Shown in pieces: positions 43,606-64,000 of a DNA stretch of 64,000 nt (its first letter is position 1; each line of letters starts with the position of its first letter). Both the position numbers and the translations under genes were made by a program. Under the pieces are notes generated by a model that was not told where the DNA came from, searched no databases, and saw only the letters and a program-made list of their open reading frames with translations. The DNA lies in NCBI GenBank assembly GCA_022705325.1, contig JAKJER010000003.1, positions 181,419 through 245,418 on the forward strand, written 5' to 3'. This stretch comes from Planctomycetota bacterium. Its GTDB lineage: Bacteria; Planctomycetota; Phycisphaerae; SM23-33.

Positions 43606-43741
43606 CCGCCCAGGGGCGAGAGAGGGTTTCGATGGAATTTCACGCCGACGCGCCAAGCAATTCGCCGCAGCAGCGTTAACCATATAACAGAAGTTGGGCG
43701 GCACCGAGGCCGCCGGACGCGAGACAGGAGAAAGGAACACA

Positions 43742-46303: not shown

Positions 46304-46324
46304 TGATTGCTGATTACGGATCGC

Positions 46325-46376: not shown

Positions 46377-46461
46377 TCCTCGGTGTCCCAGCGTCCAGTC
46401 GCGAGTTGGGAATCGAAGATCGCATACGGAGAATTCCGCAGTCCGTGATCCGCAGTCCGCA

Positions 46462-48070: not shown

Positions 48071-50029
48071 ATGTCGGTTCTGTCGGGCGTGAAAAAGCTG
48101 GTGTCCGGTTTGCCGAGGCGGTTCACCGCGGTGGACTTCGACTCGCGCCAGATGCGCATCGTCCACGCCGAGCACGTGGGTGGGCGCATGCGGGTGCTCA
48201 AGCTGCATCAACTGGCCATGCCGCCGGAAACGGACCTGTCCAACGCCCAGTTGGTCGGACAGGTCCTGGGCAAGGGCATCCGCGATCTGGGGCTGTCCGG
48301 AACGGGCGTGCTGATGAATGTGCCCCGCGGACAGGCGGTGCTCAAGCCCCTCACGCTCCCCGCGCAGACTCCGCGACAGGAACTGCCAGCCATGGTCCAG
48401 TTCCAGATGGAGAAGGAACTCCCCTTCCGCCCCGAGGAAGCGGTTATCGACTTCACCATGGCTGAGCATTTCGACGCGGTCGCCAGCGCCGAACTCAGCG
48501 CCGCCGGCGCGGGCGTCAGCCTGTTGGTGTCGGCGGTGCGCCTGCCTGTCGTCGACTACTATCGCCGCGTCGCCGAAGCCGCGGGAGTCAAGCTCGCTCG
48601 CCTGGGGCTGAGACCCTACGCCAGCATTCAGTGCGTCGATGCCTGCACCCTGCGGGCGGAGAGCGAGACGGTCGCCATCGTCCACGTCACCCCGGACGAG
48701 ACGGAGATCAACGTCCTCCTGGGCGGGGGCCTGACGTTCAGCCGCTCGGCCGTCGTCACCGTCCTGCCCCCCAAGACCGGCAGCGACCCGGCGGTCAAGG
48801 AGACCGTAGACGCTCTGGCCACCGAGGTCGCCCGGAGCCTCCAGAGCTACCAGGCTGTCCAGGGCGGCAAGAAGGTCGACGCCATCCTCGTCGCCGGCGG
48901 GACGGGCATCGAGTCGCGGCTGGCCAGCCACCTGGCGCAGCGCCTGCTGACCAAGTGCGAGATATTCCACCCCGGCCCGGCCCTCGGCGTGCACAGCGAT
49001 GCGCCGGAGACCTCCGCCTTCATTGCGGCCCTTGGGCTGGCCGTCGGGCACTGCAGCAAGATCCTGCCTTTCGACTTCCTCGCCCCCAAGCGCCCCGTGG
49101 TCCGGCGCGATCTCAAGAAGATCCGCCGCATCGCCGCCCTGGCGATGGCCGGCGTTGTCCTCCTGGGCGCCGGCATCGCCTTCACCGCTCACCTCCAGGC
49201 CAAGCGGACCGTCCTGCAGAACCTTCGCAACAAGGTTGCCTCCGCACAGAAGGAGAACAAGGACGTCAAGGCCCTGCAGAAGCGGGTGAAGGCTTTCGAC
49301 ACGTGGCTGTCCGACAGCCGCAACTGGCTCGATCACTGGACCTATCTCAGTTGTCTCTTCCCGCCCTGCCAAGACGCTTATATCTCCGACTTCCGCGTCA
49401 ACCGCAGCGATGGCTCGATCAGCTTCATCGTCAAGGCCCGTGAGGCCGAAATCATCACCGACCTCGGAAAACGCCTCACCGAAGCCGGCTACGAGTTCCG
49501 CGCCGGGCGCGAGACCGCCACCGAGCAGGACCGTTACGGGTACCTCCACGCCGCCGACATGAAGGTGATCCTCCCGCCGAACCTGGAGATGAACCTGGCC
49601 AACATGGAGAAGCCCAAGCGCCCGGTCGACGACTCTTCCCTGGAGGACTTTCTCCGGCCCGGCTACAAGCCTGTGGGTTCGCCGAACCTGCGTCCGCCTG
49701 AAGGCTCCCCCCCCTCCGCCTCCGGCCCGGCGCCCTCGTCGTTGCCATCGTCACCGGAAGCGCCCGAGGCGCCCGCAGCTCCGACGGCGGCATCGCCTCC
49801 TCCTCAGCCCGCCGACGGATACATCGGAACCGACGGCAAGACCTACACGGGCCGGCTCGCCGTCGACCGCAAGCAGCACGAGAAGACGACGGAGCTGTAT
49901 TGGCAGAAGAAGGTGCGAGACCGCGAGAGAGAGAGCCAGCGAGAGGTCGAGAAGAAACGCGAGTTGGAGAAGGCGCGCGAGCGGGAACGCGAACGACGCT
50001 CCAGCCGCCGGGGGGACGGCAATGAATAA
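48071..50029 (+). CDS. PilM-like / PilN-like fusion protein (GspL-analogous assembly-platform component)
   Basis: 652 aa with GGAG 8 nt upstream. The N-terminal ~330 aa resemble the PilM/GspL actin-like cytoplasmic domain (VDFDSRQMRIVHAE, MVQFQMEKELPF, VAIVHVTPDETEINVLLGG, AILVAGGTG). One TM helix (IAALAMAGVVLLGAGIAFTA) and a PilN-like coiled-coil/periplasmic part follow. The protein ends in a Pro-rich segment and an Arg/Glu-rich tail (RDRERESQREVEKKRELEKARERERERR). Confidence 0.65.
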   Translation: MSVLSGVKKLVSGLPRRFTAVDFDSRQMRIVHAEHVGGRMRVLKLHQLAMPPETDLSNAQLVGQVLGKGIRDLGLSGTGVLMNVPRGQAVLKPLTLPAQTPRQELPAMVQFQMEKELPFRPEEAVIDFTMAEHFDAVASAELSAAGAGVSLLVSAVRLPVVDYYRRVAEAAGVKLARLGLRPYASIQCVDACTLRAESETVAIVHVTPDETEINVLLGGGLTFSRSAVVTVLPPKTGSDPAVKETVDALATEVARSLQSYQAVQGGKKVDAILVAGGTGIESRLASHLAQRLLTKCEIFHPGPALGVHSDAPETSAFIAALGLAVGHCSKILPFDFLAPKRPVVRRDLKKIRRIAALAMAGVVLLGAGIAFTAHLQAKRTVLQNLRNKVASAQKENKDVKALQKRVKAFDTWLSDSRNWLDHWTYLSCLFPPCQDAYISDFRVNRSDGSISFIVKAREAEIITDLGKRLTEAGYEFRAGRETATEQDRYGYLHAADMKVILPPNLEMNLANMEKPKRPVDDSSLEDFLRPGYKPVGSPNLRPPEGSPPSASGPAPSSLPSSPEAPEAPAAPTAASPPPQPADGYIGTDGKTYTGRLAVDRKQHEKTTELYWQKKVRDRERESQREVEKKRELEKARERERERRSSRRGDGNE

Positions 50030-51350: not shown

Positions 51351-54300
51351 ATGCGAACTAACTGGATACTGGCTTTCGCGGTTATCTCCGCCCTTGCCGT
51401 GGCCCTGACTGCCCAGACGACCAAACCGTCGCCGCAGCCGGCCACCCAGCCAGCCGCCGCACCGACCACCCAGCCCGCCGTCGCTGCCGCGCCGACCACC
51501 AAGCCGGCCGTTGCCGCTGCGCCGACTACCCAGCCCGCCGTCGCTGCCGCACCGACCACCAAGCCGGCCGTTGTCGCTGCGCCGACTACCCAGCCCGCCG
51601 TCGCTGCCGCACCGACCACCAAGCCGGCCGTTGCCGCTGCGCCGACCACCCAGCCCGCCGTCGCTGCCGCACCGACCACCAAGCCGGCCGTTGCCGCTGC
51701 GCCGACCACCAAGCCCGCCGTCGCTGCCGCGCCGACCACCAAGCCGGCCGTTGCCGCTGCGCCGACCACCCAGCCCGCCGTCGCTGCCGCGCCGACTGTG
51801 AGACCGGCCGGGACGTACAGTAAGGACTCACCCAAGATCTTCCTCTTCCAGTTTAGCGGCTGTCCGTATCATGAGGTGATTCGCAAGTTCGCCCAGGCCT
51901 GTAAGAAACCGTTGTTGGGGGAAGTCGAGATTCCGGGCAGTCTCACGTTCTTCGACAGCGAACCTTACTGCTACGAAGAAGCCCTGGACACCCTCAACAT
52001 CCTCTTGAACATGCGGGGCTTCGCCCTGATCGAGTTCAAGCGGTATCTCCGCGTGGTGCAGGTAACCGAACTGGCCAACAACGCGAGCATCCTCCGCGGA
52101 CTGGACCAGGTCGGGGACATCCGGAACGAGCAGGTCGTCACCGTCTTGCTTCCGGTGGAGAATCTCGATCCGGAGGCCGCCTCCAAAGCCATCGTCCGCA
52201 TGGTGTCTTCGTACGGCTCGATCACTCCCATGCCTCGAGGCAAGGGTGTTCTCATCACCGACCGTCTGTCCAGCGTTCGCCGCATTCAGGACATGATCCA
52301 GATGCTGGACGCCGAGCGGGCGACCGCCAGCGACATCAAGACCATCCAGATCAAGAAGGCTTCGGCCAAGTCCGTCGCTTCGGTCATCAATCAGGTCCTG
52401 GGCGGTCCGTCTTCCAGCCCCGAACGCAGGTCGTCATCGGCTCCGCCGGCCTCTTCGGGTGACAGCGTGTCAGCCTACAGCGATGACCGCACCAATCTCC
52501 TGTTCCTGCGCGGTGTGGGCGCCAAGCTGCAACTGGCCGAGCAACTCGTGGAGAAGTTGGACAGCGAAGCGACCAGCGATGTCAGCGACATGCGCCTGAT
52601 CGAGTTGAAGAACGCCCGCGCCGAGGACGTAGCCAAGACCATCAGCGAAGTCATGCCCCGCGACCAGATCCAGGTGGCGGGCCCGCCCAGCAGCGACTCC
52701 AGCCGACGCCACTATCCCGTCACCGTGGCCAAGGGCAAGGTCGTCGCCGAGCCGGAGACCAACCGCCTGATCGTCTCCGCTCCGCTGGACGTGATGGTCA
52801 AGATCGAGGAACTGATCAAGAAGCTCGACGTGGCCAGCGACACCAGCGGCGGGGTCAAGGTCCTGCGTCTCAAGACCGCCGACGCCGCCCAGCTTGCCCC
52901 TATTGTCTCGGCCGCGGTGGCCAAGCAAACCCTCGCCGCTGGCGGGGCGAGAAGGGGAATGGTCACTGTCACCGCAGACAGCCGCACGAATTCTCTGGTG
53001 ATCGTGGGCCCGGCCGGCGACATCCAGGCAGCCGAGAAGCTCGTCGCCGAACTCGACCGCCCGCTGGACAAGGAAGAGGAACGCCAGATCCGCATCATCC
53101 AGTTACCCTCGGGCAACGCCGAGAAGCTGGCCAGTGCCATCTCCCGCGTGCTGGACAGCTCCCCGTCTTCGCATTACGGCTCCAGCCGCTATGGGTCGTC
53201 CTCGTCCCGCTCCCAGACCAGCCGCCCGCGTATCGAGGCCGACTCCGGCACCAACAGTCTGCTGATCTCGGCTGCCCCAAGCGACTGGCCGCAGATCGAA
53301 TCCATCCTGAAGCAGATCATTCCGCCCCCACCGCCTGACCAGCCCGCGGCCGCCACGCCGCTGGCCTTGACGACTCCGGTGCTGCGCCACGTGCCGCTCA
53401 AGTTCGCCAAGGCGGAGGATCTCGCCACCACGCTGCTGTCCGTGTTCGGCACGCGCCGGCGCAGCGAGGCCGTTTCCATCATCATCACCCCGTCGGCCCG
53501 CACCAACAGTCTGCTCATCTCGGCCGCCGAACCCGACCAGATCGCCATGGGGGAGTTGATCAAGACTCTCGACGTCGACTCCAGCGAGAAGCTCGACCCG
53601 GTCCGCATCGTCGAACTGAAGGTGGCTGACGCCGCCAAGGTCGCCGACGCCATCCAGGCCGTCCTGCCCCCGCGCCCCGTCGGGCGACGCGGCGAGACCC
53701 ACCAGGTCACCATCCACGCCGACACCGCCACCAACACCCTCTTTATCCGCGCCGGCGAGGCCGAGCAGAAGCTCATCGACGAGGTTATAGCCCGGATGGA
53801 CAAGGGCGCAATCGACCCCACCATTGTCCGCGAGACGCGAATCATCGCCCTCAAGTTCGTCCCTGCCAGCCAGATGGCGGCCAGTGTCCAGCAGTTCTTC
53901 CAGTCGGCCGGCGGCTCGCCCTCCAGCCCATACGGCTCGTCGTATTATCGCCGCCGGAGCTACTCCTCCGCCTCCGGAGAAAAGGCCTTCGATTCGCTGG
54001 TCGTCGCCGCCGCACCGGGAGACCAGGCCCTCATCGTGGAAGGACCCAAGAAGAAGGTCGACGAGGTCGCCGCCTTCGTCGCCAAACTCGACACCCAGGA
54101 CACCGGCCAGGCGACAATTGTCCGCGTCTATACCCTCAAGGAAGCCGACGCCGGCGAAATCTCCCGGACCCTGTCGGCCACTTTCTCCAAGAAGTGGCAG
54201 GACCAGAAGCGACGCGATCCGAAGCTGGCCGACCCCGAGCCGTCGTTTGAAATCAACGCCGGCGCCAACCAGCTCATCATCGCCGCCACCGAGAAGCAGC

Positions 54301-57300
54301 TTACCGAGATAGACGCGTTGATCGCCCAACTCGAGAAGGCCCCGGCTGTGACCAGCCAGACCAAGACCTTCCCCCTCAAGCACGCCAAGGCCGAGGAACT
54401 GGTCAACGTCCTCCAGACGATGCTGACCTCAGGCGCTCCCAGCCCCTACAGCGGCTATGCGTACAGTCGGCGATCCAGAAGCGTCGAGGGCGAGTTGAAG
54501 ATCGCCGCCATCGCCGCCTCCAATTCGCTGGTCATCCAGGGCCCGCCAGCCAAGATGGCCAAGGCCGAGCAACTCATCGCCTCCTTCGACACGCCCCAGG
54601 CGGGCGAGTCCTCGCTGATCAGCATCGTGCCGCTCAAGGCCGCCTCCGCCTCCCAACTCGCGGTCACCCTCAAGAACATGCTGCCTCCCCAGAGTCGAGA
54701 GCGAGAAAGCGAGTTGGTCATTCAGGCGGACACGGCGAGCAACTCCCTGCTCATCCGCGCCAGCGCCACGCAGCGAAAGATCATCGACGAACTGATCCCC
54801 AAGCTCGACGTCGAGTTGGCCGAAGGCACCCGCGAGATGCGGGTCGTGCCCGTAATGTTCGTCTCGGCCTCTCAGATCGCCCAGACCGTGTCGCAGGTCT
54901 TCCGCGGCCAGAACGGGACATCTTCGTCGTCTTCCTCCTATCGACGATCGTACTATCGGTCGTACGACGCCCCGCAGGCGGGTCCGGGCAGCGACGAGAT
55001 TCTTATCACGCCCGCCCCCAACGACCGCAGCATCGTCATCGAAGCCCCCAAGAAGAAGATCGAGCCGATTGTTCAGCTCATCGCAACCCTTGACGTTGCC
55101 GAAGGCACCGCCAAGGCCAACCAGATCCGCACCTACCAGCTCAAGAACGCCAACGCAGCCGAAGTTTCCCGCGTTCTTTCGGGCATGTACACCCAGCGAA
55201 CCAGCGGATACGGCGAGGCCCCTTCCGCGCGAGGCGGCTCGGGCCCGACCGCCACCCCGCCCAAGTTCGACCACGACACCGCGACCAATCAGCTCGTCGT
55301 CTCGGCCAGCGACGAACAGTTCGTCGAGATCGACGCACTGATCAAGAAGCTGGAAGAGGCGCCCCAACTGGCCACCCAGACCAAGACCTTCCCGCTCAAG
55401 CACGTGCGGGCGAGCGAGGTCCTGCCGGTGCTGACCAACCTGCTGAGCGAAACGCCCGCCTCCACCCCCGAGGGCTACGCGGGCTACTCGCCCTACTCCT
55501 CCCGTCGGCGCTACGGAGCGTCTGCGTCGTCGGAGCTTCGCCTGGCCGCCCTCCCCGGCGCCAATAGCATCGTCGCCCAGGGCCCGCCGCCCAAGATGCT
55601 CAAGGTCGAGCAACTCATCGCTTCCTTCGACACGCCCCAGGCGGGCGAGTCCTCGCTGATCACGATGGTGCCGCTGAAGAACGCCTCGGCCGCCAAACTC
55701 GCCGAGACCCTCAAGTCCATGCTGCCCGCCGCCTCGCGAGACAAGCCAAGCGAACTGGTCGTCCAGGCCGACACCGCGACCAACTCTCTGCTCATCCGCG
55801 CCGACGGCACCCAGCGGAAGATGCTCGACGAGTTGATCCTCAAACTCGACGTCGAGGTCGTCCAGACCGCCCGCGAAATGCGGGTCGTTCCGGTGCAGTT
55901 CGTCTCCGCCGCCCAGATCGCCCAGACCGTCTCCCAAGTCTTCCTGAAACAGGACGCTTCGTCGTCCTCCTACCGGCGATCCTCGTACTACTACCGCTCG
56001 TATTACCGCTCCTACGACGAGCCCGAAGAACCCACCCGCACCGGCGCGGATGCCGACAAGATCGTCGTGACGGCCTCCCCCAACGACCGCTCCGTCATCG
56101 TCGAGGCCCCCAAGCTGAAGATCGAGCCTGTCGTTCAGCTCATCACGACCCTGGACGTGCCCGAGGGCACGGCCAAGCCCCAGCAGATCCGCACCTACCA
56201 GCTCAAGAACGCCAACGCAGCTGAAACCGCCCGCATCCTGAGCAATATGTACGCCCAGCGTCAGAACGGCAGCGTCAGCAGCTACGGCGAGGAAGGCAGT
56301 CCAAGCCGGACCGCCAAGTCGAAGATCCCCGCGCCGAAGTTCGACCACGACGCCGGATCCAATCAGCTTGTCATCTCGGCCAACGACGAGCAGTTCGTCG
56401 AAATCGAAGCCCTGATCAAGACGCTGGATGAGACGCCCCAACTGGCCACGCAGACCAAGACGTTCCCGCTCAAGCACGCCAGGGCCAGCGAGATCGTCCC
56501 GCTGCTGACCAGCCTGTTGAGCGACACGCCCTCGTCCCCGGCGGTCGGCAGCTACTCGCGGTATTCATCGCGAAGTCGCTACGGCGCGTCGGCGACCGCC
56601 GGAGAGGTCCACGTCGCCACCCTGCCCGGGACCAACTCTGTGATTGTGCAGGGCCCGCCGGCCAAACTCACCCAGGCCGAGCAGTTGATCTCCACGTTCG
56701 ACACGCCCGAAGCGGGCGGCTCGTCGCTGGTGACGGTGATCCCGCTCAAGAACGCCTCGGCCGTCACGCTCGCCGAGACGTTGCGGAGCATGCTGCCCCC
56801 GCCCGTGCGGGGAAGGCCCGAGGAGATCGTCATCCAGGCCGACAGCCTGACCAACTCGCTGTTGGTCCGAGCTCCCGAAGACCAGCGCAAGACTATCGAC
56901 GACCTCATCGCCAAGCTCGACGGCGGCCTGGCCGATAATGCCCAGACCCGCGAGATGCGGATCATCCCGGTCAAGCACCTGTCGGCCGCCCAACTCGCAG
57001 AGACCGTCAGCGTCATGTACCAGCAACTCCGCGAGGCCCGGCGCGGGCTCCGCGCCCGTCCCGTTGACCCGGGCGAGCAGGTCGTCATCACCCCCTCTCC
57101 CAATGACCGCTCGATCGTCGTCGAAGCCCCCAAGAAGAAGGTAGAGGAGATCGCCAAGCTGGTGGCCGATCTGGACACCGAGGAGAACAGCTTCCAGATC
57201 CTCGTGCGGACCTACCAGCTCAAGACCGCCAGTGCATCGGAGCTGGCCCGTTCCCTGACCAACATCTTCGCCGCCAAAGTCGCCGGCTCCGCCTCGCCCG

Positions 57301-60300
57301 GCCGGCGCCCCGGCGCCGTGCCCAATCGCGCCGGTCCGCAGCCCACCTTCGACGTCGACGCCGCCAGCAACCAACTCCTGGTCGCCGCCACGTCTGAACA
57401 ACTCATCGAGATCGAGCAGCTCATCCAGAAGATGGACAATCCGGAGGTGCAGGCCGTCCAGACCCGCATCTTCCCCATCCAGCACGCCAAGGCCGACGAG
57501 CTGGTCACTCTCCTTCAGACGATGCTGAATGAGAATCCCCCCTCGGCCGCCTACGGCAGCTCGGCGTACTACTCGCGACGCTACCGCCCGACCGGGTCGT
57601 CCAGTGGAGACGACATCCGCATTTCCACGCTGCCCGGCACGAACAGCATTGTCGTCCAGGGGCCGCCCAACAAGCTTACGCGGGCCGAACAGCTCATCAA
57701 GAGCTTTGACACGCCCGAGGCGGCCGTCGCCGCCACCGTCACCATCATCCCCATCAAGAACGCCTCCGCGGCCACCCTGGTCGAGACCCTGCGGGCCATG
57801 CTCCCGCCGGTCAAGGGTCGGGCCGAGGAAGTGTTCATCCAGGCCGACATCCTGACCAACTCCGTGCTCATCCGCGCTCCCGAGACCCAACGGAAAATGG
57901 TCACCGAGTTGGTCGCCAAGCTGGACACCCAGAGCGAGCTTACCCGCGAGATGCGCGTTATCCCGCTCACCTTCACCAGCGCCACCCAACTCGCCAGCGC
58001 CCTGCAGGTCATGTACCAGCAGCACATGGCCACCCGGGGCGGCCCGCGGGCCAAGCCGGTGGACCCGGCCGAGCAGGTCATCTTCACCCCCGCGCCGCAC
58101 GACCAGGCCCTGGTCGTCGAGGCGCCCAAGAAGAAGATGGAGGAGATCGCCGCCCTCATCGAGAAGCTGGACGTCCAGGAAAGCCCCGACCGCCTCACGG
58201 TACGCACCTACCAGTTGGCCGAGAACTCCGACGCGGTCGAGACCGCCCGTACGCTGGCCAAGCTCTTTACCGAGACCCGCGTTCGCCCGGGCGCGATCGC
58301 GGGCAATCAACAGCAGCCCCGCTTCGAGGCCGACGGAGTGGGCAACCAGCTCATCATCGCCGCCACGCCCAAGCAGTTCGAGGAGATCGAGCCGCTGCTG
58401 AAGAAGCTCCAGGACTCCGCCCAGCTTGCCGTGCGAAGCAAAACCTACCAGCTCAAGTTCGCCAAGGCCGCCGACATCGTCCAGATGCTCCAGTCCATGC
58501 TGACCGGGACCACCGGCCGGTCGCGGTACTCCGCCTATGGGGACCCGGCCGCCGCGTCGAGCGAGGTCCGTGTCGCTGCCGTCAACGGCAGCAACAGTGT
58601 CTTCGTCCAGGGGCCGCCGGCCAAGCTGGCCATGGCCGACGAACTGATCCGCACCTTCGACACCGAGCAGGCGGCTGCCCGCAGCGTGATTCAGATCATC
58701 AAGCTCAAGAACGCCCAGGCGGCCTCGCTGGCCCAGGCCGTCAACGCCACGCTGGAGGCCCGGGCCGCCCGCCGTCCTTACGGCGAGCAGGCCGGCGCCG
58801 ACGACGGAAAGGTCACCGTCACGCCCGAGCCCAACTCCAACAGCCTTCTGGTCCGCGGGCCGCTGGCCGAGATTCCCTCCGTGCTGGAGATGATCCGCGA
58901 CCTGGATGAGGGCGGGACGAGCGCCAAGAGCGAAGTCCGCATCTTCCCGATCAAGAACTCCGACGCATACGAGCTTTCGACAACCCTGGGCAGACTGGTG
59001 CAGGACATGATCGCCCAGCAGACGCGCGCTCGCGGCGACGTGCCCGTGCCGGCCTTCAGCATCGCCGCCGACACCCGCACCAACTCGCTCATCGTCTCCA
59101 CCACCTCCGCCTACTTCGCCATCGTCGAGCAACTCCTGGAGAACCTCGACAAGGAACAGCCCATCCGCGACGTTCAGTACATCGCTCTGACCAACGCCCA
59201 AGCCGTCGACGTAGCCGAGAAGGTCAACGCCCTCTTCACCGACCGCAAAGGGTCCGACAAGCCTGTCATCGAGGCGGAGGAGTACACCAATTCCCTCACC
59301 GTCATCGCCAAGGCGGTGGACCTGCTGACGATCCAGGAAATGGTGGAGAAGCTCGACAAGGGACGGCGCGAACTTCAGGTCCGGGTCGTCCCCATCAAGC
59401 AGATCAAGGCCGAACGGATGGCCGAGATCATCCAGCGGGTATACGGGCAGACGACGAGCAGCCGTGTCATCGTCACCGGCCAGTCCCCCCCGACGCGGAT
59501 GGGGATCGAGTTGCCCGCCCCTCAACCGACGCCCGCTCCGCCCCCGCCGGCGGGCAAAGGCCCCGCCGCTTCGGCCAAGCCGTGGACCGGCAGCGTTCCT
59601 CGCCCGGCGACGCAGCCAGCCACCCGGCCCACCACGCGACCGGAGAGCGCCCCAGCCGCCAAGGACGATGGCGAGTTGGAGGAGAACCCTCCGATCACCA
59701 TCGCCATCGACCATAAGAGCAACACGCTGATCATCTCGGGCCCGCCCCAGGAGATCGACAACATCCAGGGCCTCATCGACCAGATGATGACCTCGCCCGA
59801 GGAGGCCGAGGCTGAGTTCCGGACCTATAGGATCGAGCACGCCGACCCGGTGGTTCTGGCCCAGACGCTGGAGGACATGTTCAACCCCAAGCCCAAGGTA
59901 GTCTACCTCCAAGCCCGTACCGGACAGCCGGCGCAGGCCCCGGCTGAACCGCCCCCGCCCATTACTGTACAGGCCGACGCCCGCACTCGCTCCATTGTCG
60001 TCCGGGCGAAAGTCATCGACTTCGACATGATCGAGCCGCTGATCAAGTACCTCGACCAGGAGACTTCCGCCCACAGCGAACTGCGCGTCTTCCCGCTGGA
60101 GAACACCGAGGCCGGCGAGGTCGCCGACAACCTCAAGGAGATGTTCAACCTGGCCCAGAAGGGGACCGCGGCCCAGCCCGCGCCCCAGCCTCAGGCCGGG
60201 CGCACGGCCCAGCGCGGCCGGGCCGACCGTGTCCGCCAGGTCATGGACCTGCAGGTCGCTGCCGGCGGCTCAGCCAAGGTCGATCCCTATTCGGCCATCT

Positions 60301-63300
60301 CCATCTCCGCCAACCGCAACACCAACAGCGTGGTCGTCTCGGCGCCTAAGGAAGTCATGAAGCTCGTCGAGTCGATCATTCAGGAGTTGGACCAGTCGGC
60401 TCTCCAGTCCAAGACCGTGGTCCGCATGTACCCGCTCAAGCACGCCGAGGTCACGCCGACGGTGTCGGCCCTGCGGGAGATCTTCTCGCAGGCGGCCCGC
60501 ACCAGCCCGCTGCGCTCGTCCCGCACCGGTTCGACGCCCGGAGCCTCGCTGCGAGACGCCCCGATCGTCGTCACCGGCGACGAGGTCGGCAGGCAGATCA
60601 TCGTGTCCGCCCCCGTCACCCAGCATGAAACGGTCGCCAAGGTCATCCAGGACATCGACACCGCCCAGGGAGTCGGGCAGATCCTGGTGCAGGTCTACCG
60701 CATCCAGAACGCGGAGGCGACCAGCGTCGCCGCTTCACTCAGTACCATGTTCTCGTCGACGGCCTCCGCCGCCGGCACGGGGCGGCGTGTCCGCACTGCC
60801 ACCGGAGGCGGCGGCCCCAGGATCAGCGCCGACGCCAGCAGCAACTGCATCGTGGTGCGGGCCGTCCAGGAGGACCACGCCGAGATCACCCGTCTGCTGG
60901 AGGAACTGGACGCCTCGCCGGCCGACAAGTATCCCGTGCGCCGCATCCCCATCCAGAACGCAAGCCCCACCGTCCTGGCCACCAACCTGCGGGCGGTCTT
61001 CGCCGGCCGTTCAGGCACGGCTGGCGGGCGGCGAGGCGGTGCCGCCGGACGCGACGGACTGGTCATACAGCCTGACGAGGACGCCCGCATGCTCCTGGTC
61101 CGAGCGGACGAGGAGACCTACAAGAAGATCGAGGAGATGGTCCAGGCCCTCGATGCCGTCAGCGTCTCCGACAAGCTCCAGACCGTCATCATCCCGCTCG
61201 AACACGGGCAGGCGACCAGCGTGGCCGCCGCATTATCCCAGGCGTTCGGCGCCTCCGCACGCGGGGGACGCCGCTCCACCAGCCCCGAAGACGAAGTCCG
61301 CATCGCTGCGGAGACGTTCACCAACTCCATCCTGATCACCGCCAGCGAGAAGAATCTGCTGAAGATCCAGGCGATGGTCCAGAAGCTTGAGAAGGACACG
61401 GCCGGCGGGGTCAAGAGCGAGTTCCTTGTGCTCACCAACGCCAAGGCCGACGACCTGGCGACCGTCCTGGCACGCCTGGCCGGCGCGAGCGGACGCGGCG
61501 CCCGGGGCGCAGCCGGGACCGGCGGGGTCACCGTGGCCGCCGATGCCGCCGCCAACGCCCTGGTGTTCTCCGGACCGGCCGCCGAGGTCGCGAAGCTCTC
61601 GACGATGGCCAAGCAACTCGACCAGGCGGCTCAGGGCTCGGCTGTCCAGGTGTTCATGATCCCGTTGAAGAACAACATCGCGTCGGAGGTGGCAGCCGCC
61701 ATCCAGCAACTCCACGCCCAGCAGGCGGTGCGCCGCGGCGGGGCCGCTTCCCGCGAACCGCTCTCGGTCACGTTCGACGACTCCGCCAACGTCGTCGTCC
61801 TGTCCACCACCAAGCGACAGTATGACGAGATTTCACAGTGGGTGACCAAGTTCGAGGAACTGAAGGTCACGCGCGAAGCCCCGAAGATCATCGCCCTGGT
61901 CAACAGCGACCCGCAGGAGATCGAGCGGGCCCTTCGCCAGATGTTCGCCGGCGGGTCGGCCCCTGGAGGGCGCGGCTCGCGGACCGTTCGCACCACCGGC
62001 AAGGTCGAGATCGCCTCTCTGCCACAGCAGCGTGCCCTGCTGGTCAAGGCTGGCGCCGAGGACTTCAAGCTCATCAGCGATCTGGTCAAGTCGCTGGACG
62101 AGTCGGCCCCGACCGCCATGCCCAAGCAGACAATGGTCGCGCTGAAGCACGCGCCGGCCGCCAGCGTGGCCTCCGCCTTGACGGCGGCCTTCGGCCCCGG
62201 CAGGCGAGGGCGCACCGCCCTGGCCCGACCCGAGGATGAGGTCCGCGTCGTGGCCGAGGCGGCCTCCAACTCCGTCATCATCACCGCCGACGAGAAGAAC
62301 ACGACCGCCGTGCTGAGCCTGATCGCCAAGCTGGACACCGACGAGGCCTCGGGCAAGGCCCAGTTCCTGATCCTCAAGAAGGCCAAAGCCGTCGAGTTGG
62401 CCCGCGTGCTCAGCGCGGCCACGTCGCGGGGCGCCCGCAAGCCGGGCCAGCAGCCGCTGGTAGTCACGGCGGATGCCGCCAGCAACGCCCTGGTCCTCTC
62501 GGGCCCGCCCAACGACATCGAAGCCGCCATCGCCATGGCCACCAAGCTGGACGAGGCCGCCACGGCGGGCATCTCGGAAGTCTTCCTGATCCCGCTCAAG
62601 ACGGGCCAGGCCAGCGAGGTCGCCGCCACCGTACAGCAGATCTACCAGCAGCAGGCCGCGGCGACGCGCTCGGCGGGGCGGACGATCGACCCCCTCGCCG
62701 TCTCGGCTGATGACTCGGCCAACGTGATCATCCTGGCCACCACCAAGGTCATGCATGACCAGGTGAACCAGTGGATCGGCAAGGTCGAAGAGATGAAGGT
62801 CGGCCAGGGCGAGCCGCGCCTGGTCACGCTCGAGAACGCCGATGTGGCCGAGGTAGAGAAGGCCGTGCGGGCGTTGTTCATCACTGTCCGGGCGACCGCC
62901 GGGCGTGGCGCCCGCGGGGCGGCCGGGGCCACCGGCGCCCGTATCGAGGTGGCTTCCCTGCCCCAGCAGCGGGCCTTGCTGATCAAGTCCGGCGAGGAAG
63001 ACTTCAAGGCCATCAACGACCTGATCATGGCACTGGACGCAGCCGCCGTCACCCGCCTGAACAAGCAGACGATCATTCCGCTGAAGCACGCCCAGGCCAC
63101 CAGCGTAGCTCCGGCTTTGCAGTCGGCATTTCAGCAGCAGATTCGCGGGCGCGGAGCGGCGGTGAAGCCAGAAGATGAGGTCCGCATCATCGCCGAGCCG
63201 ATCTCCAACACATTGATCGTGGCTGCCAGCGACAAGAACACGGTCCTCGTGCAGGGCCTGGTGGCCAAGCTGGATACGGACGAGGCCTCGGGCAAGGCCC

Positions 63301-64000
63301 AGTTCCTGATTCTCCAGAAGGCCAAGGCGGTCGAACTGGCCAAGGTGCTGTCTACGGTGTCGGCCAGTCGCAGCCGTAAGCCCGGCCAGCAACCGCTGAT
63401 CATCACCGCCGACGTTGCCAGCAACGCCTTGGTCATGTCGGGCTCCGCGACCGAGATGGACGCGGCGATCAAGATGGCGCAGGAGTTGGACGGCGCCGCC
63501 AGCGAGAGCCTCGCGCAGGTATTCCTGATCACGCTCAAGAGCGGACAGGCCAGCGACGTGGCTGCCACGGTTCAGCAGATTTATCAGCAGCAGACGGCGG
63601 CCGCCCGCACCGCGGGCCGCTCCATCGATCCCCTGGCGGTCTCGGCGGATGACTCCGCCAACGTGCTCATCCTCTCAACCACCAAGGCGATGCATGACCA
63701 GGTGAACCAGTGGGTGCAGAAGGTTGAGGAGATGAAACTCAACCAGGAAGCGCCCCAGTTGGTCACCCTCGAGAACGCCGACGTCCAGGAAGTGGAGAAG
63801 GCCATCCGACAGATCTTCGTCTCCGGGAAGGTCAGCCGAACGGGAAAGGCCATCGGGAAGATCGAATTGGCCGTGTTGCCCCAGCAGCGAGCCTTGTTGA
63901 TCAAGGCGGGCGAGGAGGACTTCAAGGCCATCAACGAGTTGATCAAGTCCCTGGACGCTGCGGCCGTTGCCGCCAAGCACCAGCAGACGCTGATTACACT
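51351..64000 (+). CDS. Giant secretin (GspD)-like protein with about 47 tandem secretin N-domain-like modules; 5' partial, continues beyond the window
   Basis: This ORF is not in the supplied track. ATG 51351 has GGAG 8 nt upstream, and the frame with codons starting at positions divisible by 3 has no stop through nt 64000 (>=4,216 codons). I translated it manually end to end. It has signal peptide MRTNWILAFAVISALAVALTAQ, an (APTT[QK]PAVAA)x11 linker and an N0-like domain (KIFLFQFSGCPYHEVIRKFAQACKKPLLGEVEIPGSLTFFDSEPYCYEEALDTLNILLNMRGFALIEFKRYLRVVQV). Repeated modules of the form xxTFPLKHAKAEELVNVLQTML...(loop)...IQADTASNSLLIRASATQRKIIDELIPKLD follow. All checked repeat anchors (54360, 55380, 56454, 57462, 58437, 61416, 62358, 63297) are in this frame. 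It is co-directional with, and directly downstream of, the T2SS genes. Confidence 0.85.
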   Translation, partial: MRTNWILAFAVISALAVALTAQTTKPSPQPATQPAAAPTTQPAVAAAPTTKPAVAAAPTTQPAVAAAPTTKPAVVAAPTTQPAVAAAPTTKPAVAAAPTTQPAVAAAPTTKPAVAAAPTTKPAVAAAPTTKPAVAAAPTTQPAVAAAPTVRPAGTYSKDSPKIFLFQFSGCPYHEVIRKFAQACKKPLLGEVEIPGSLTFFDSEPYCYEEALDTLNILLNMRGFALIEFKRYLRVVQVTELANNASILRGLDQVGDIRNEQVVTVLLPVENLDPEAASKAIVRMVSSYGSITPMPRGKGVLITDRLSSVRRIQDMIQMLDAERATASDIKTIQIKKASAKSVASVINQVLGGPSSSPERRSSSAPPASSGDSVSAYSDDRTNLLFLRGVGAKLQLAEQLVEKLDSEATSDVSDMRLIELKNARAEDVAKTISEVMPRDQIQVAGPPSSDSSRRHYPVTVAKGKVVAEPETNRLIVSAPLDVMVKIEELIKKLDVASDTSGGVKVLRLKTADAAQLAPIVSAAVAKQTLAAGGARRGMVTVTADSRTNSLVIVGPAGDIQAAEKLVAELDRPLDKEEERQIRIIQLPSGNAEKLASAISRVLDSSPSSHYGSSRYGSSSSRSQTSRPRIEADSGTNSLLISAAPSDWPQIESILKQIIPPPPPDQPAAATPLALTTPVLRHVPLKFAKAEDLATTLLSVFGTRRRSEAVSIIITPSARTNSLLISAAEPDQIAMGELIKTLDVDSSEKLDPVRIVELKVADAAKVADAIQAVLPPRPVGRRGETHQVTIHADTATNTLFIRAGEAEQKLIDEVIARMDKGAIDPTIVRETRIIALKFVPASQMAASVQQFFQSAGGSPSSPYGSSYYRRRSYSSASGEKAFDSLVVAAAPGDQALIVEGPKKKVDEVAAFVAKLDTQDTGQATIVRVYTLKEADAGEISRTLSATFSKKWQDQKRRDPKLADPEPSFEINAGANQLIIAATEKQLTEIDALIAQLEKAPAVTSQTKTFPLKHAKAEELVNVLQTMLTSGAPSPYSGYAYSRRSRSVEGELKIAAIAASNSLVIQGPPAKMAKAEQLIASFDTPQAGESSLISIVPLKAASASQLAVTLKNMLPPQSRERESELVIQADTASNSLLIRASATQRKIIDELIPKLDVELAEGTREMRVVPVMFVSASQIAQTVSQVFRGQNGTSSSSSSYRRSYYRSYDAPQAGPGSDEILITPAPNDRSIVIEAPKKKIEPIVQLIATLDVAEGTAKANQIRTYQLKNANAAEVSRVLSGMYTQRTSGYGEAPSARGGSGPTATPPKFDHDTATNQLVVSASDEQFVEIDALIKKLEEAPQLATQTKTFPLKHVRASEVLPVLTNLLSETPASTPEGYAGYSPYSSRRRYGASASSELRLAALPGANSIVAQGPPPKMLKVEQLIASFDTPQAGESSLITMVPLKNASAAKLAETLKSMLPAASRDKPSELVVQADTATNSLLIRADGTQRKMLDELILKLDVEVVQTAREMRVVPVQFVSAAQIAQTVSQVFLKQDASSSSYRRSSYYYRSYYRSYDEPEEPTRTGADADKIVVTASPNDRSVIVEAPKLKIEPVVQLITTLDVPEGTAKPQQIRTYQLKNANAAETARILSNMYAQRQNGSVSSYGEEGSPSRTAKSKIPAPKFDHDAGSNQLVISANDEQFVEIEALIKTLDETPQLATQTKTFPLKHARASEIVPLLTSLLSDTPSSPAVGSYSRYSSRSRYGASATAGEVHVATLPGTNSVIVQGPPAKLTQAEQLISTFDTPEAGGSSLVTVIPLKNASAVTLAETLRSMLPPPVRGRPEEIVIQADSLTNSLLVRAPEDQRKTIDDLIAKLDGGLADNAQTREMRIIPVKHLSAAQLAETVSVMYQQLREARRGLRARPVDPGEQVVITPSPNDRSIVVEAPKKKVEEIAKLVADLDTEENSFQILVRTYQLKTASASELARSLTNIFAAKVAGSASPGRRPGAVPNRAGPQPTFDVDAASNQLLVAATSEQLIEIEQLIQKMDNPEVQAVQTRIFPIQHAKADELVTLLQTMLNENPPSAAYGSSAYYSRRYRPTGSSSGDDIRISTLPGTNSIVVQGPPNKLTRAEQLIKSFDTPEAAVAATVTIIPIKNASAATLVETLRAMLPPVKGRAEEVFIQADILTNSVLIRAPETQRKMVTELVAKLDTQSELTREMRVIPLTFTSATQLASALQVMYQQHMATRGGPRAKPVDPAEQVIFTPAPHDQALVVEAPKKKMEEIAALIEKLDVQESPDRLTVRTYQLAENSDAVETARTLAKLFTETRVRPGAIAGNQQQPRFEADGVGNQLIIAATPKQFEEIEPLLKKLQDSAQLAVRSKTYQLKFAKAADIVQMLQSMLTGTTGRSRYSAYGDPAAASSEVRVAAVNGSNSVFVQGPPAKLAMADELIRTFDTEQAAARSVIQIIKLKNAQAASLAQAVNATLEARAARRPYGEQAGADDGKVTVTPEPNSNSLLVRGPLAEIPSVLEMIRDLDEGGTSAKSEVRIFPIKNSDAYELSTTLGRLVQDMIAQQTRARGDVPVPAFSIAADTRTNSLIVSTTSAYFAIVEQLLENLDKEQPIRDVQYIALTNAQAVDVAEKVNALFTDRKGSDKPVIEAEEYTNSLTVIAKAVDLLTIQEMVEKLDKGRRELQVRVVPIKQIKAERMAEIIQRVYGQTTSSRVIVTGQSPPTRMGIELPAPQPTPAPPPPAGKGPAASAKPWTGSVPRPATQPATRPTTRPESAPAAKDDGELEENPPITIAIDHKSNTLIISGPPQEIDNIQGLIDQMMTSPEEAEAEFRTYRIEHADPVVLAQTLEDMFNPKPKVVYLQARTGQPAQAPAEPPPPITVQADARTRSIVVRAKVIDFDMIEPLIKYLDQETSAHSELRVFPLENTEAGEVADNLKEMFNLAQKGTAAQPAPQPQAGRTAQRGRADRVRQVMDLQVAAGGSAKVDPYSAISISANRNTNSVVVSAPKEVMKLVESIIQELDQSALQSKTVVRMYPLKHAEVTPTVSALREIFSQAARTSPLRSSRTGSTPGASLRDAPIVVTGDEVGRQIIVSAPVTQHETVAKVIQDIDTAQGVGQILVQVYRIQNAEATSVAASLSTMFSSTASAAGTGRRVRTATGGGGPRISADASSNCIVVRAVQEDHAEITRLLEELDASPADKYPVRRIPIQNASPTVLATNLRAVFAGRSGTAGGRRGGAAGRDGLVIQPDEDARMLLVRADEETYKKIEEMVQALDAVSVSDKLQTVIIPLEHGQATSVAAALSQAFGASARGGRRSTSPEDEVRIAAETFTNSILITASEKNLLKIQAMVQKLEKDTAGGVKSEFLVLTNAKADDLATVLARLAGASGRGARGAAGTGGVTVAADAAANALVFSGPAAEVAKLSTMAKQLDQAAQGSAVQVFMIPLKNNIASEVAAAIQQLHAQQAVRRGGAASREPLSVTFDDSANVVVLSTTKRQYDEISQWVTKFEELKVTREAPKIIALVNSDPQEIERALRQMFAGGSAPGGRGSRTVRTTGKVEIASLPQQRALLVKAGAEDFKLISDLVKSLDESAPTAMPKQTMVALKHAPAASVASALTAAFGPGRRGRTALARPEDEVRVVAEAASNSVIITADEKNTTAVLSLIAKLDTDEASGKAQFLILKKAKAVELARVLSAATSRGARKPGQQPLVVTADAASNALVLSGPPNDIEAAIAMATKLDEAATAGISEVFLIPLKTGQASEVAATVQQIYQQQAAATRSAGRTIDPLAVSADDSANVIILATTKVMHDQVNQWIGKVEEMKVGQGEPRLVTLENADVAEVEKAVRALFITVRATAGRGARGAAGATGARIEVASLPQQRALLIKSGEEDFKAINDLIMALDAAAVTRLNKQTIIPLKHAQATSVAPALQSAFQQQIRGRGAAVKPEDEVRIIAEPISNTLIVAASDKNTVLVQGLVAKLDTDEASGKAQFLILQKAKAVELAKVLSTVSASRSRKPGQQPLIITADVASNALVMSGSATEMDAAIKMAQELDGAASESLAQVFLITLKSGQASDVAATVQQIYQQQTAAARTAGRSIDPLAVSADDSANVLILSTTKAMHDQVNQWVQKVEEMKLNQEAPQLVTLENADVQEVEKAIRQIFVSGKVSRTGKAIGKIELAVLPQQRALLIKAGEEDFKAINELIKSLDAAAVAAKHQQTLIT
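51459..51800 (+). repeat. In-frame 30-nt tandem repeat (11 copies plus a degenerate 12th) encoding APTT[Q/K]PAVAA
   Basis: Units start at 51459, 51489 and so on up to 51759. Two nucleotide variants largely alternate (gcaccgaccacccagcccgccgtcgctgcc and gcgccgaccaccaagccggccgttgccgct), giving a 60-nt higher-order period. The track ORFs 51344..51835(-) and 51511..51801(+) are shadows of this repeat. Confidence 0.95.
54360..58436 (+). repeat. Super-repeat family 1 inside the giant ORF: four copies of a 4-module (~1 kb) unit
   Basis: Anchors are TKTFPLKHAKAEE (54360), TKTFPLKHVRASE (55380), TKTFPLKHARASE (56454) and TRIFPIQHAKADE (57462). A diverged fifth copy starts at SKTYQLKFAKAAD (58437). Periods are 1020, 1074, 1008 and 975 nt. 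Each copy holds four distinct module types in fixed order. Confidence 0.85.
61416..64000 (+). repeat. Super-repeat family 2 inside the giant ORF: 4-module (~0.94 kb) unit, at least 2.7 copies, continuing past the window
   Basis: Anchors are SEFLVLTNAKADDLA (61416), AQFLILKKAKAVELA (62358) and AQFLILQKAKAVELA (63297). Periods are 942 and 939 nt. A 60-nt stretch aligned by eye (62341-62400 against 63281-63340) is identical at 54 of 60 positions. Confidence 0.85.

What the first reader, a model, noticed from the sequence alone, without database searches (positions are those of the whole stretch)
51351..64000. Hypothesis: an extremely elongated periplasmic secretin conduit, or a fibre/tether built from N-domains
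In solved T2SS/T3SS/T4P secretin structures the N-domains stack as rings below the barrel, each adding a few nm to the periplasmic vestibule. If the ~47 modules stacked the same way, the periplasmic part would be on the order of 100 nm or more. That is far beyond a normal Gram-negative periplasm. It is conceivable in lineages with enlarged periplasmic space or deep envelope invaginations, as reported for Planctomycetota. Their large surface pits (crateriform structures) associated with fibres are, to my knowledge, not fully defined at the molecular level. Alternatively the modules may form a flexible multivalent scaffold or may be proteolytically processed. This is speculation prompted by the sequence, not something the sequence demonstrates.
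Basis: inference. Interest (0 to 1): 0.7.

Follow-up and report, generated by a model that had tools for sequence, protein, structure and literature searches.

The report
Giant type II secretin, ~75 N-domains
The last gene of an ordinary-looking type II secretion operon in an anaerobic-digester planctomycete encodes an outer-membrane secretin whose periplasmic part holds about 75 tandem N-domains instead of the usual 3-6; it belongs to a large, apparently undescribed family of such giants, whose periplasmic part could be hundreds of nanometres long if the domains stack as they do in solved secretins.

Summary
A single open frame, 51351 to beyond 64000 on the + strand, encodes a signal peptide, a P/T/A-rich repeat spacer, an N0 domain, 47 complete secretin N-domains and the start of a 48th.

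The missing 3' end was recovered on another contig, L003. Exact identity of the flanking proteins to OQB85540 and OQB85542 of 'Planctomycetes bacterium ADurb.Bin126' places both ends in one gene. L003 adds 27 more modules and a true secretin domain (PF00263, E 2.5e-54; above the GspD TIGR02517 cutoff). The protein therefore has at least 6,780 aa and about 75 modules.

The gene closes a GspE-F-G-(H/I)-J-K-L-M/C operon. Inter-module linkers are 2-6 aa. Module order is collinear with other giants, and two zones of 4-module cassettes carry the extra length.

It is not unique. At least 111 distinct complete homologues have 26-57 modules, mostly from Planctomycetota and Verrucomicrobiota by source labels. 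I found no paper describing them.

The stacked-ring conduit reading is plausible but undemonstrated. The link to crateriform structures is not supported.

The parts
40409..42184 (+). GspE-type secretion ATPase, first gene of the operon
   Evidence: PF00437 T2SSE E 1e-141 and MshEN
42403..43605 (+). GspF-type inner-membrane platform protein
   Evidence: PF00482 T2SSF E 2e-56, two stretches
43694..44209 (+). Major pseudopilin GspG
   Evidence: PF08334 T2SSG E 3e-23 and N_methyl motif
44421..45029 (+). Minor pseudopilin candidate (H-like); start taken from the NCBI/JGI gene calls
   Evidence: N_methyl motif in the ORF 43995-45029; 202-aa gene called at this place in L004/L005; no NCBIfam hit
45102..45593 (+). 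Minor pseudopilin candidate (GspI-like)
   Evidence: Weak XpsI/GspI hits, E 0.002-0.05
45590..46303 (+). Minor pseudopilin GspJ
   Evidence: PF11612 T2SSJ E 2e-5
46300..47865 (+). Minor pseudopilin GspK
   Evidence: T2SSK_1st E 4e-11, T2SSK, HHH_3
48071..50029 (+). PilM/GspL-like assembly-platform protein (652 aa)
   Evidence: PilM_2 E 4e-21; TIGR01175 and Amuc_1101-family PilM-like; homologue upstream of the giant in L001
50022..51098 (+). 358-aa protein with weak GspM-like N-half and GspC-like C-half; conserved immediately upstream of giant secretins
   Evidence: NF040576 GspM E 2e-7 (aa 12-158) and NF041515 GspC_delta E 8.5e-4 (aa 168-324), both below cutoff; 36% identical homologue in the same position in L001; equals OQB85540.1
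51351..51416 (+). Signal peptide of the giant secretin (no lipobox cysteine)
   Evidence: Sequence MRTNWILAFAVISALAVALTAQ read directly; cleavage site is my inference
51430..51796 (+). 30/60-nt tandem repeats encoding PTTQ/KPAVAAA; a P/T/A-rich spacer between signal peptide and N0
   Evidence: TRF period 60, 5.7 copies, 96% matches; translation; 240 nt shorter in L007
51852..52061 (+). N0 domain
   Evidence: PF21305 E 0.003, below cutoff. Collinear phmmer alignment to V. cholerae GspD 5wq8, query 3-330 to chain 7-316. AF2 model pLDDT 80-92; Foldseek top hits PulD 6hcg, XcpQ N0-N2, GspD 3ezj
52134..52322 (+). Divergent N1 module
   Evidence: beta-alpha-beta-beta-alpha in the AF2 model, residues 97-159; weak match to the module HMM
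52329..53582 (+). Modules W1-W5, unique, one-to-one with modules 1-5 of other giants
53598..58670 (+). Expansion zone A: five copies of a 4-module cassette (W6-W25), many with S/Y/R-rich alpha1-beta2 loops
   Evidence: Self-similarity at offsets 332-358 aa; cassette pattern 6-7-8-x against P0190; paralogue dN/dS 0.45-0.84; loops
58683..60920 (+). Modules W26-W33, unique, collinear with 8 consecutive modules of P0189/P0192; includes a 69-aa P/T/A-rich insertion in W29
61176..64000 (+). Expansion zone B: 4-module cassettes of about 313 aa (W35-W46 plus the cut W47), continuing off the window into L003
   Evidence: Offsets 306-315 aa; dN/dS 0.34-0.72; L003 nt 1-600 is 91-96% identical to 62451-63050, differing mostly at synonymous sites

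Best explanation
What it is (about 0.9 sure): the outer-membrane secretin (GspD class) of a complete type II secretion / type IV filament-type operon in the Phycisphaerae bacterium 'Planctomycetes bacterium ADurb.Bin126'. Its periplasmic N-domain array has been expanded to about 75 beta-alpha-beta-beta-alpha modules, giving at least 6,780 aa. The layout is signal peptide, P/T/A-rich spacer, N0, N1, about 74 further N-modules, secretin beta-barrel domain, short tail.

How it most likely works (about 0.4-0.45 sure; inferred, not shown): 12-15 protomers form the usual outer-membrane pore. The tightly linked N-modules then stack as successive rings, or at least as an ordered multi-chain bundle. 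This makes a defined-length periplasmic tube or strut that carries N0 to the GspL/M/C-like inner-membrane platform across an unusually wide or variable periplasm. The GspG pseudopilus would polymerise inside it.

At about 3.5-4.2 nm per ring, scaled from Thermus PilQ, the extension would be roughly 260-310 nm. About 32 individually conserved modules form a fixed core. Two zones of 4-module cassettes act as evolutionary length adjusters.
For: - Identity of the N-terminal part: 46 Pfam Secretin_N stretches, N0 and TIGR02517.
- The 3' end is on L003: 26 Pfam Secretin_N stretches (27 modules with my HMM) plus PF00263 Secretin at E 2.5e-54. Its last 666 aa score 397.8 against the GspD equivalog cutoff of 351.35, while PilQ falls below its cutoff.
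- Both ends are one gene. The flanking proteins are exact matches to OQB85540.1 (locus tag BWX88_01806) and to OQB85542.1 and OQB85543.1 (BWX88_01809), all with a 348,935-nt longest contig.
- Operon context: GspE/F/G/J/K/L-like genes. The gene order PilM-like, 358-aa protein, giant is conserved in a distant genome.
- Ordered architecture: linkers are 2-6 aa. Across 111 complete homologues the median linker is 4 aa and 93% are 8 aa or shorter.
- All length variation sits at one intra-domain loop.
- Module order is collinear with P0189, P0190 and P0192. The last 16 modules map 16/16 and the first 8 map 8/8.
- Fold: AF2 models show beta-alpha-beta-beta-alpha repeats, with T2SS secretins as the top PDB matches.
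- Precedent: in Thermus PilQ six N rings make a 35-nm complex that spans a wide periplasm, and loop insertions there form a second gate (PMC5745081).
- Not junk: independent assemblies agree, paralogue dN/dS is below 1, and near-identical cassette copies differ mostly at synonymous sites.
Against: - No data on oligomerisation or ring stacking. Monomer AF2 gives low pTM (0.31-0.41), so inter-module geometry is undetermined.
- A tube of about 260-310 nm exceeds any measured periplasm and approaches cell dimensions.
- A 15-mer would weigh more than 10 MDa, and the pseudopilus would need hundreds of subunits.
- No expression evidence was available.
- The exact module number is a lower bound. The window ends and L003 begins inside repeat zone B, and short-read contigs can be chimeric in repeats.
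- The envelope architecture of this uncultured organism is unknown.
Confidence: 0.45

Rival explanations
1. Partial ring model. Only the outer-membrane-proximal, best-conserved modules (roughly the last 16) build a ring-stacked vestibule. The remaining ~58 modules of each protomer are not closed rings but 12-15 rod-like or flexible chains. They would act as tethers or a scaffold keeping the inner-membrane platform leashed to the pore, binding peptidoglycan or partners, or forming a periplasmic mesh. The S/Y/R-rich loops might provide cohesive contacts.
For: - The last 16 modules show much larger orthology score margins than the distal ones.
- The distal half carries lineage-specific low-complexity S/Y/R loops, a 69-aa P/T/A insertion and variable cassette numbers.
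- AF2 gives no rigid inter-module packing.
- It avoids the need for a 300-nm straight periplasm.
Against: - Linkers of 2-6 aa along the whole array argue against a floppy chain.
- The distal modules W1-8 and W26-33 are also positionally conserved.
- N0 is kept at the very tip.
- Solved secretins show N-domains only as rings.
Confidence: 0.3
2. The machine is a pilus or fibre assembly system (type IV-filament, Akkermansia Amuc_1098-1102-like) rather than a protein-secreting T2SS. The long N-array would be a sheath guiding a true pilus through the periplasm. This concerns the cargo and is compatible with either structural model.
For: - The platform protein is PilM-like and matches the Amuc_1101 family. 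The C-terminus weakly matches the Amuc_1098 family.
- Planctomycetes carry long fibres of unknown machinery (PMC5394234).
Against: - GspJ and GspK-type minor pseudopilins and a T2SSG-type major pseudopilin are present.
- The GspD equivalog passes its cutoff while PilQ fails.
- No AMIN domain was reported, and no retraction ATPase was seen in the operon.
Confidence: 0.25
3. It is the molecular basis of planctomycetal crateriform structures.
For: Only circumstantial. The crateriform complexes are outer-membrane complexes of unknown composition associated with fibres. By source labels the family is mostly from Planctomycetota and Verrucomicrobiota.
Against: - Crateriform structures are always in close contact with the cytoplasmic membrane and are missing where the periplasm is enlarged (PMC5394234).
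- The named relatives are all metagenome-assembled genomes, and no giant from a crateriform-bearing cultured strain turned up.
- The host is an uncultured Phycisphaerae of unknown morphology.
Confidence: 0.07
4. Assembly artefact, pseudogene or non-expressed repeat expansion.
For: - Short-read assemblies break in this gene: contigs end in it.
- The PT-repeat length differs between assemblies, and one has a 100-nt gap there.
- No expression data.
Against: - More than 4,200 and 2,566 codons are open in frame, with gene-like codon bias.
- Identity is 99.6-100% across independent assemblies.
- 111 complete homologues have the same architecture, and a long-read contig carries a contiguous, frameshifted homologue.
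- Differences between near-identical cassette copies are mostly synonymous.
Confidence: 0.03

Closest known systems
T2SS secretin GspD/PulD/XcpQ (TIGR02517; PDB 5wq8, 6hcg, 3ezj)
   Same: - Signal peptide, N0, N-domains and C-terminal secretin domain in the same order.
- The first ~330 aa after the spacer align collinearly with V. cholerae GspD N0-N3.
- The C-terminal 666 aa pass the GspD equivalog cutoff.
- The gene sits last in a gspE-F-G-...-K-L-M-type operon.
- Structural top hits are T2SS secretins.
   Different: - About 75 N-modules instead of 3 after N0, and at least 6,780 aa instead of about 650.
- A 150-aa P/T/A-rich spacer precedes N0.
- No clear separate GspC; only weak GspM and GspC similarity in one 358-aa protein.
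- The platform protein is PilM-like.
Thermus thermophilus PilQ (six stacked rings N0-N5, 35 nm; PMC5745081)
   Same: It is the only characterised secretin whose extra N-domain rings lengthen the periplasmic channel to span a wide periplasm. [quoted passage not shown]
   Different: - Six rings against about 75.
- Thermus PilQ serves a T4P/DNA-uptake system.
- This protein scores as GspD rather than PilQ.
- Ring stacking here is inferred only.
Uncharacterised giant 'secretin N-terminal domain-containing proteins' of Planctomycetota/Verrucomicrobiota in public databases (for example P0189 with 5,532 aa and 57 modules, P0190, P0192, and the L001 giant of 3,968 aa)
   Same: - Same architecture: signal peptide, A/P/T-rich spacer, N0, tens of N-modules with ~4-aa linkers, secretin domain.
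- Collinear module order and the same two cassette zones.
- The same upstream partner gene.
   Different: - This gene has more modules (at least 75 against 26-57), owing to larger cassette zones: zone B has at least 25 modules against about 10 in P0190.
- S/Y/R-rich loops are shared by only 9 of 111 homologues.
Akkermansia Amuc_1098-1102 type IV pilus-like cluster (NCBIfam NF042912, NF045709)
   Same: A type IV filament-type system from the same bacterial superphylum, with a PilM-like platform protein. Weak family matches for the 652-aa protein and the secretin C-terminus.
   Different: The matches are far below cutoff, and the Amuc_1098 family profile (805 positions) is of ordinary secretin size.

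Membership tests
Secretin superfamily (PF00263) | C-terminal secretin beta-barrel/gate domain | tested here: met
   Not inside the window. It lies on L003, the 3' end of the same gene: PF00263 E 2.5e-54, aa 2305-2471 of the 2,566-aa fragment. The link to the window gene rests on exact flanking proteins OQB85540 and OQB85542/43.
Secretin superfamily (PF00263) | Periplasmic N-domains of the Secretin_N (beta-alpha-beta-beta-alpha) type | tested here: met
   46 Pfam stretches in the window and 26 in L003; AF2 secondary structure and Foldseek hits.
Secretin superfamily (PF00263) | Homo-oligomeric (12-15-mer) outer-membrane channel | not testable with these tools
   No multimer modelling or experiment was available.
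T2SS secretin GspD (TIGR02517 equivalog) | Score above the curated equivalog cutoff | tested here: met
   Window part 1187 bits, inflated by repeats. The non-repetitive C-terminal 666 aa score 397.8 against a cutoff of 351.35.
T2SS secretin GspD (TIGR02517 equivalog) | N0 domain at the N-terminus, the docking site for GspC | tested here: met
   Pfam N0 is below its cutoff (E 0.003). Support comes from the collinear alignment to GspD 5wq8 residues 7-316, and from the AF2 model with Foldseek hits to N0-containing structures 3ezj, 3oss_D and 6hcg.
T2SS secretin GspD (TIGR02517 equivalog) | Encoded with GspE, F, G and the minor pseudopilins J and K | tested here: met
T2SS secretin GspD (TIGR02517 equivalog) | A GspC partner with an HR domain | tested here: inconclusive
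   Only a weak GspC_delta match (E 8.5e-4, 19 bits against a cutoff of 150) in the C-half of the 358-aa ORF.
T2SS secretin GspD (TIGR02517 equivalog) | Canonical size: N0 plus three N-domains | tested here: not met
   About 75 N-modules. Hence I call it a variant rather than an ordinary member.
Type IV pilus secretin PilQ (TIGR02515) | Score above cutoff; AMIN domains | tested here: not met
   231-260 bits against a cutoff of 284. No AMIN family appears among the Pfam hits.
Extended stacked-ring secretin (Thermus PilQ type) | Additional N-domains forming stacked periplasmic rings | not testable with these tools
   Additional N-domains are present, but stacking cannot be assessed. Monomer pTM is 0.31-0.41.
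Planctomycetal crateriform structure component | Localisation to crateriform pits | not testable with these tools
   The literature places the pits where the periplasm is narrow. No localisation data exist for this protein.

The most novel reading that the evidence does not exclude
Giant secretins are the structural solution that lets bacteria of the Planctomycetes-Verrucomicrobia group run a type II secretion or type IV filament machine across a greatly enlarged, variable periplasm. A closed tube of about 30-75 stacked, individually specialised N-rings, 100-300 nm long, would link the outer-membrane pore to the inner-membrane platform, with two cassette zones tuning its length to envelope geometry. 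In this lineage, S/Y/R-rich loops at a single site in each ring might line the lumen as a low-complexity gate or filter, by analogy with loop-built Gate 2 of Thermus PilQ.
Probability: 0.25. Interest if true: 0.88.

Novelty: new variant of a known kind. Interest (0 to 1): 0.7.

Why it matters
Characterised secretins have 2-6 periplasmic rings. [quoted passage not shown] A family with 26-75 ordered N-domains would be an order of magnitude beyond that.

If the domains stack, these would be the longest trans-periplasmic conduits known, each weighing more than 10 MDa. That would make a concrete, testable prediction for cryo-ET of Planctomycetes and Verrucomicrobia cells, whose enlarged periplasm and fibre or uptake machinery are molecularly undefined.

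The conserved module order, together with the two cassette zones, also offers a natural system for studying how the length of a molecular machine evolves.

A practical point: these genes are routinely fragmented in short-read metagenome-assembled genomes and labelled 'partial', so their existence is easy to miss.

Tried and rejected
- **Whole-protein homologue search.** It timed out.
- **Word-indexed protein search.** In three searches it returned nothing longer than about 1,160 aa, only contig-end fragments. It therefore could not show full-length relatives, and I do not read that as absence. The exhaustive representative search did find them.
- **Genome-contig scan.** It did not contain the source genome, only distant loci: L001 was useful, while the long open frame in L002 is a TonB-dependent receptor.
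- **First exact look-ups of the L003 downstream proteins.** They failed because I had the start codons wrong. Retrying with alternative starts worked.
- **Is L003 just an allelic copy of window 62.4-64 kb?** Rejected. Identity is 91-96% only over the first 600 nt and falls to 64-83% over the next 600 nt, then lower. The window's last 612 nt match L003 at 72%. Meanwhile the population is clonal and L003's flanking proteins are exact matches to the source bin. The two are therefore paralogous cassette copies in one gene.
- **First paralogue alignment for AlphaFold (A1).** It was a staircase of overlapping segments and was discarded.
- **AF2 monomer models.** They did not inform inter-module geometry.
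- **L010 (Phycisphaerales CP070685).** It holds Secretin_N-only ORFs outside any T2SS context and did not help.
- **Ten literature searches.** None found a description of poly-N giant secretins. The giant-gene preprint 10.1101/2023.11.21.568195 mentions T2SS-like loci next to Omnitrophota giants but does not contain the word 'secretin'.
Full report
**1. The observation**

Frame 2 of the + strand is open from 51273 to the end of the window, 4,242 codons. The ATG at 51351 opens a typical signal peptide, MRTNWILAFAVISALAVALTAQ, with no lipobox cysteine. It is followed by about 150 aa of PTTQ/KPAVAAA repeats, encoded by a 30/60-nt tandem array at 51430-51796.

Pfam reports 46 Secretin_N stretches (E = 0) and a weak N0. 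NCBIfam reports GspD TIGR02517 at 1187 bits.

A 73-position HMM that I built from the modules places 46 complete modules at aa 327-4205, with the first residues of another at the cut. AlphaFold shows one more, divergent beta-alpha-beta-beta-alpha module (N1) at aa ~262-324.

Third-position GC is 0.87, the same as in neighbouring genes.

**2. Source and independent confirmation**

The two genes upstream are exact matches to OQB85539.1 and OQB85540.1 of 'Planctomycetes bacterium ADurb.Bin126', on a contig of 348,935 nt. Related records are labelled Phycisphaerae.

The same organism occurs in NCBI, JGI, ENA and Logan assemblies. These are 99.6-100% identical to window 40-61 kb. All of these short-read contigs end inside the giant gene, which explains why it is seen only as fragments.

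**3. The missing C-terminus**

A metagenome scan with the last 400 aa found L003 (JGI Ga0116149_1000310). Its open frame of 2,566 aa holds 26 Pfam Secretin_N stretches (27 modules with my HMM), then a Secretin domain (PF00263, E 2.5e-54), then a short tail. The last 666 aa exceed the curated GspD equivalog cutoff (397.8 against 351.35), whereas PilQ and SctC fall below theirs.

The genes just downstream in L003 are exact matches to OQB85542.1, OQB85543.1 (BWX88_01809) and OQB85544.1 of the same bin and contig. OQB85540.1 is BWX88_01806. So exactly one locus lies between them, and the window ORF and the L003 ORF are the two ends of one gene.

L003 nt 1-600 is 91-96% identical to window 62451-63050, with mostly synonymous differences. 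It then diverges, and the window's last 612 nt match L003 at only 72%. Because the population is clonal and L003's flanks are exact, these are paralogous cassette copies, not an overlap.

The lower bound is therefore 4,216 + 2,566 = 6,782 aa. Following the cassette register (window ends in a b1-type module, L003 starts in b2) gives about 6,880 aa and 75 modules. More cassettes could lie in between.

**4. Context**

The gene closes a same-strand operon:
- GspE
- GspF
- GspG
- two small pseudopilin-like ORFs
- GspJ
- GspK
- a 652-aa PilM/GspL-like protein, which also matches the Amuc_1101 family
- a 358-aa protein with a weak GspM-like N-half and GspC-like C-half

The last two genes are found in the same order directly upstream of a distant giant in L001, at 30% and 36% identity. 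The rest of the window is ordinary chromosome, with UvrA, HypF, PurH and PFK.

**5. Anatomy**

*Linkers and loops.* Inter-module linkers are 2-6 aa, with one of 16 aa. All length variation (modules of 67-142 aa) sits at one site, the alpha1-beta2 loop after HMM state 29. In modules W1-W26 these loops are S/Y/R-rich, for example SSSSYRRSSYYYRSYYRSYDEPEEP. Module W29 carries a 69-aa P/T/A-rich insertion. Some C-proximal modules carry 24-34-aa loops of ordinary composition.

*Positional orthology.* Best-hit mapping of modules onto other giants shows conserved order:
- W1-8 map to modules 1-8.
- W26-33 map to eight consecutive unique modules.
- The last 16 modules (C12-27) map 16/16 in order onto the last 16 of P0189, P0190 and P0192, with large score margins.

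*Expansion zones.* Between these blocks lie two zones of 4-module cassettes:
- Zone A covers W6-25, five copies.
- Zone B covers W35-47 plus C1-11, at least 25 modules. The corresponding zone in P0190 has about 10.

Paralogous cassettes have dN/dS of 0.34-0.84.

The picture is an ancient, ordered array of individually distinct modules, with lineage-specific length changes confined to two zones.

**6. Structure**

The N-terminal 330 aa after the spacer align collinearly with V. cholerae GspD N0-N3 (5wq8 residues 7-316).

I predicted two AF2 models:
- N0 plus five N-modules (N1 and W1-W4): pLDDT 83.
- Four mid-array modules: pLDDT 77.

Both show clean beta-alpha-beta-beta-alpha repeats with disordered loops. 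Their best PDB matches are T2SS secretins: PulD 6hcg, ExeD 6i1x, XcpQ N0-N2 and GspD 3ezj. T3SS InvG and PilQ follow.

pTM is 0.31-0.41 and global rmsd is large. The monomer models therefore say nothing about how modules pack.

**7. It is a family**

An exhaustive HMMER search of 1.84 billion representatives with 1,200 aa of the array gave 3,501 hits at E <= 1e-3 and 457 at E <= 1e-30.

Of the top 150, 111 are complete proteins with signal peptide, N0, 26-57 modules and a C-terminal secretin domain. They measure 2,794-5,532 aa, with a median of 39 modules. The median linker is 4 aa, and an A/P/T-rich spacer (median 76 aa) precedes N0.

L001 is one complete example on a single contig (3,968 aa). 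L011 is a long-read contig with a contiguous but frameshifted one.

Named C-terminal fragments come mainly from Phycisphaerae, other Planctomycetota and Verrucomicrobiota metagenome-assembled genomes.

The present gene is the longest I saw. S/Y/R loops occur in only 9 of 111 homologues.

**8. Mechanism**

*Shown:* this is a GspD-class secretin with a hyper-expanded, ordered N-domain array, encoded in a T2SS-type operon.

*Inferred:* in every solved secretin the N-domains form stacked rings. In Thermus PilQ six rings give a 350-Å complex that spans most of a wide periplasm, and loop insertions there build a second gate (PMC5745081).

Four features here make an ordered, defined-length periplasmic tube or strut the most economical reading: short linkers, N0 retained at the tip, conserved module order, and a conserved GspM/C-like neighbour. 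Such a structure would carry N0 to the inner-membrane platform.

Scaling from Thermus (about 3.5-4.2 nm per ring) gives roughly 260-310 nm for 75 modules. This is my extrapolation, not a measurement. I put about 0.4-0.45 on it.

The main rival, at about 0.3, is that only the conserved barrel-proximal block forms rings and the rest are tethers or a scaffold. Whether the cargo is secreted proteins or a fibre remains open.

**9. Crateriform structures**

Boedeker et al. 2017 found these pits only where the cytoplasmic membrane is held close to the outer membrane, calling them 'press-stud' connections. They are absent at invaginations (PMC5394234). That fits poorly with a conduit longer than 100 nm, and nothing here links the two.

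**10. Novelty**

The sequences are public and auto-annotated as GspD or 'secretin N-terminal domain-containing protein, partial'. In ten full-text searches I found no paper that describes secretins with tens of N-domains.

I rate it a new variant of a known kind: unremarkable in family membership, remarkable in scale and in what it predicts for the cell envelope of this bacterial group.

Noticed in passing
window 51430-51796: A 30/60-nt tandem array encodes PTTQ/KPAVAAA repeats between the signal peptide and N0. The ENA contig L007 is 240 nt (eight 30-nt units) shorter here, and the NCBI contig L004 has an unaligned stretch of exactly 100 nt here, which looks like a scaffold gap. This is either copy-number variation or assembly collapse. 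An A/P/T-rich spacer before N0 is common in the family (median 76 aa).
   Followed up: partly
window 52329-58900 (modules W1-W26): The alpha1-beta2 loops are low-complexity S/Y/R(G)-rich, for example SSSSSSYRRSYYRSYD and GYAGYSPYSSRR. They occur only in the N-terminal (inner-membrane-side) half and in only 9 of 111 complete homologues. Their function is unknown. Whether they face the lumen was not determined.
   Followed up: partly
window 59373-59798 (module W29): One module carries a 69-aa P/T/A-rich insertion in the same loop, in the middle of the array. It could be a hinge or a spacer.
   Followed up: no
window 50022-51098: This 358-aa ORF has no Pfam hit. It shows weak GspM-like (aa 12-158) and GspC-like (aa 168-324) similarity, and a 36%-identical homologue sits immediately upstream of the giant secretin in L001. 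It may be a fused GspM/GspC adaptor specific to giant secretins.
   Followed up: partly
window 48071-50029: The PilM-like platform protein also matches the Akkermansia Amuc_1101 family, which hints that this system is related to the Amuc_1098-1102 pilus-like cluster.
   Followed up: no
window 38712-40163 (- strand): A 483-aa protein with many EF-hand and dockerin-like calcium-binding repeats lies directly upstream of the operon, transcribed divergently.
   Followed up: no
L001 (CALQJI020000005.1): The record is titled as a Klebsiella pneumoniae MAG. Yet it carries a 3,968-aa giant secretin and a PSCyt1/PSCyt2/PSD1 protein typical of Planctomycetes, so it is very likely mis-binned or mislabelled.
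   Followed up: partly
L011 (ENA ERZ25039462 contig_9555, 1.23 Mb): A giant secretin is split into six consecutive same-strand ORFs of 871+, 1519, 768, 224, 997 and 121 aa. This looks like long-read frameshift errors rather than a real operon of fragments.
   Followed up: no
L010 (Phycisphaerales CP070685.1, 2.09 Mb region): Two adjacent Secretin_N-only ORFs (823 and 1,121 aa) have no secretin barrel domain and no T2SS neighbours. They sit next to FUR and ferritin genes and ATP synthase genes.
   Followed up: no
tool behaviour, versus 46: In three searches the word-indexed protein search returned no protein longer than about 1,160 aa, although thousands-of-aa relatives exist in the 50% representative library. 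Giant proteins may be invisible to that index.
   Followed up: partly
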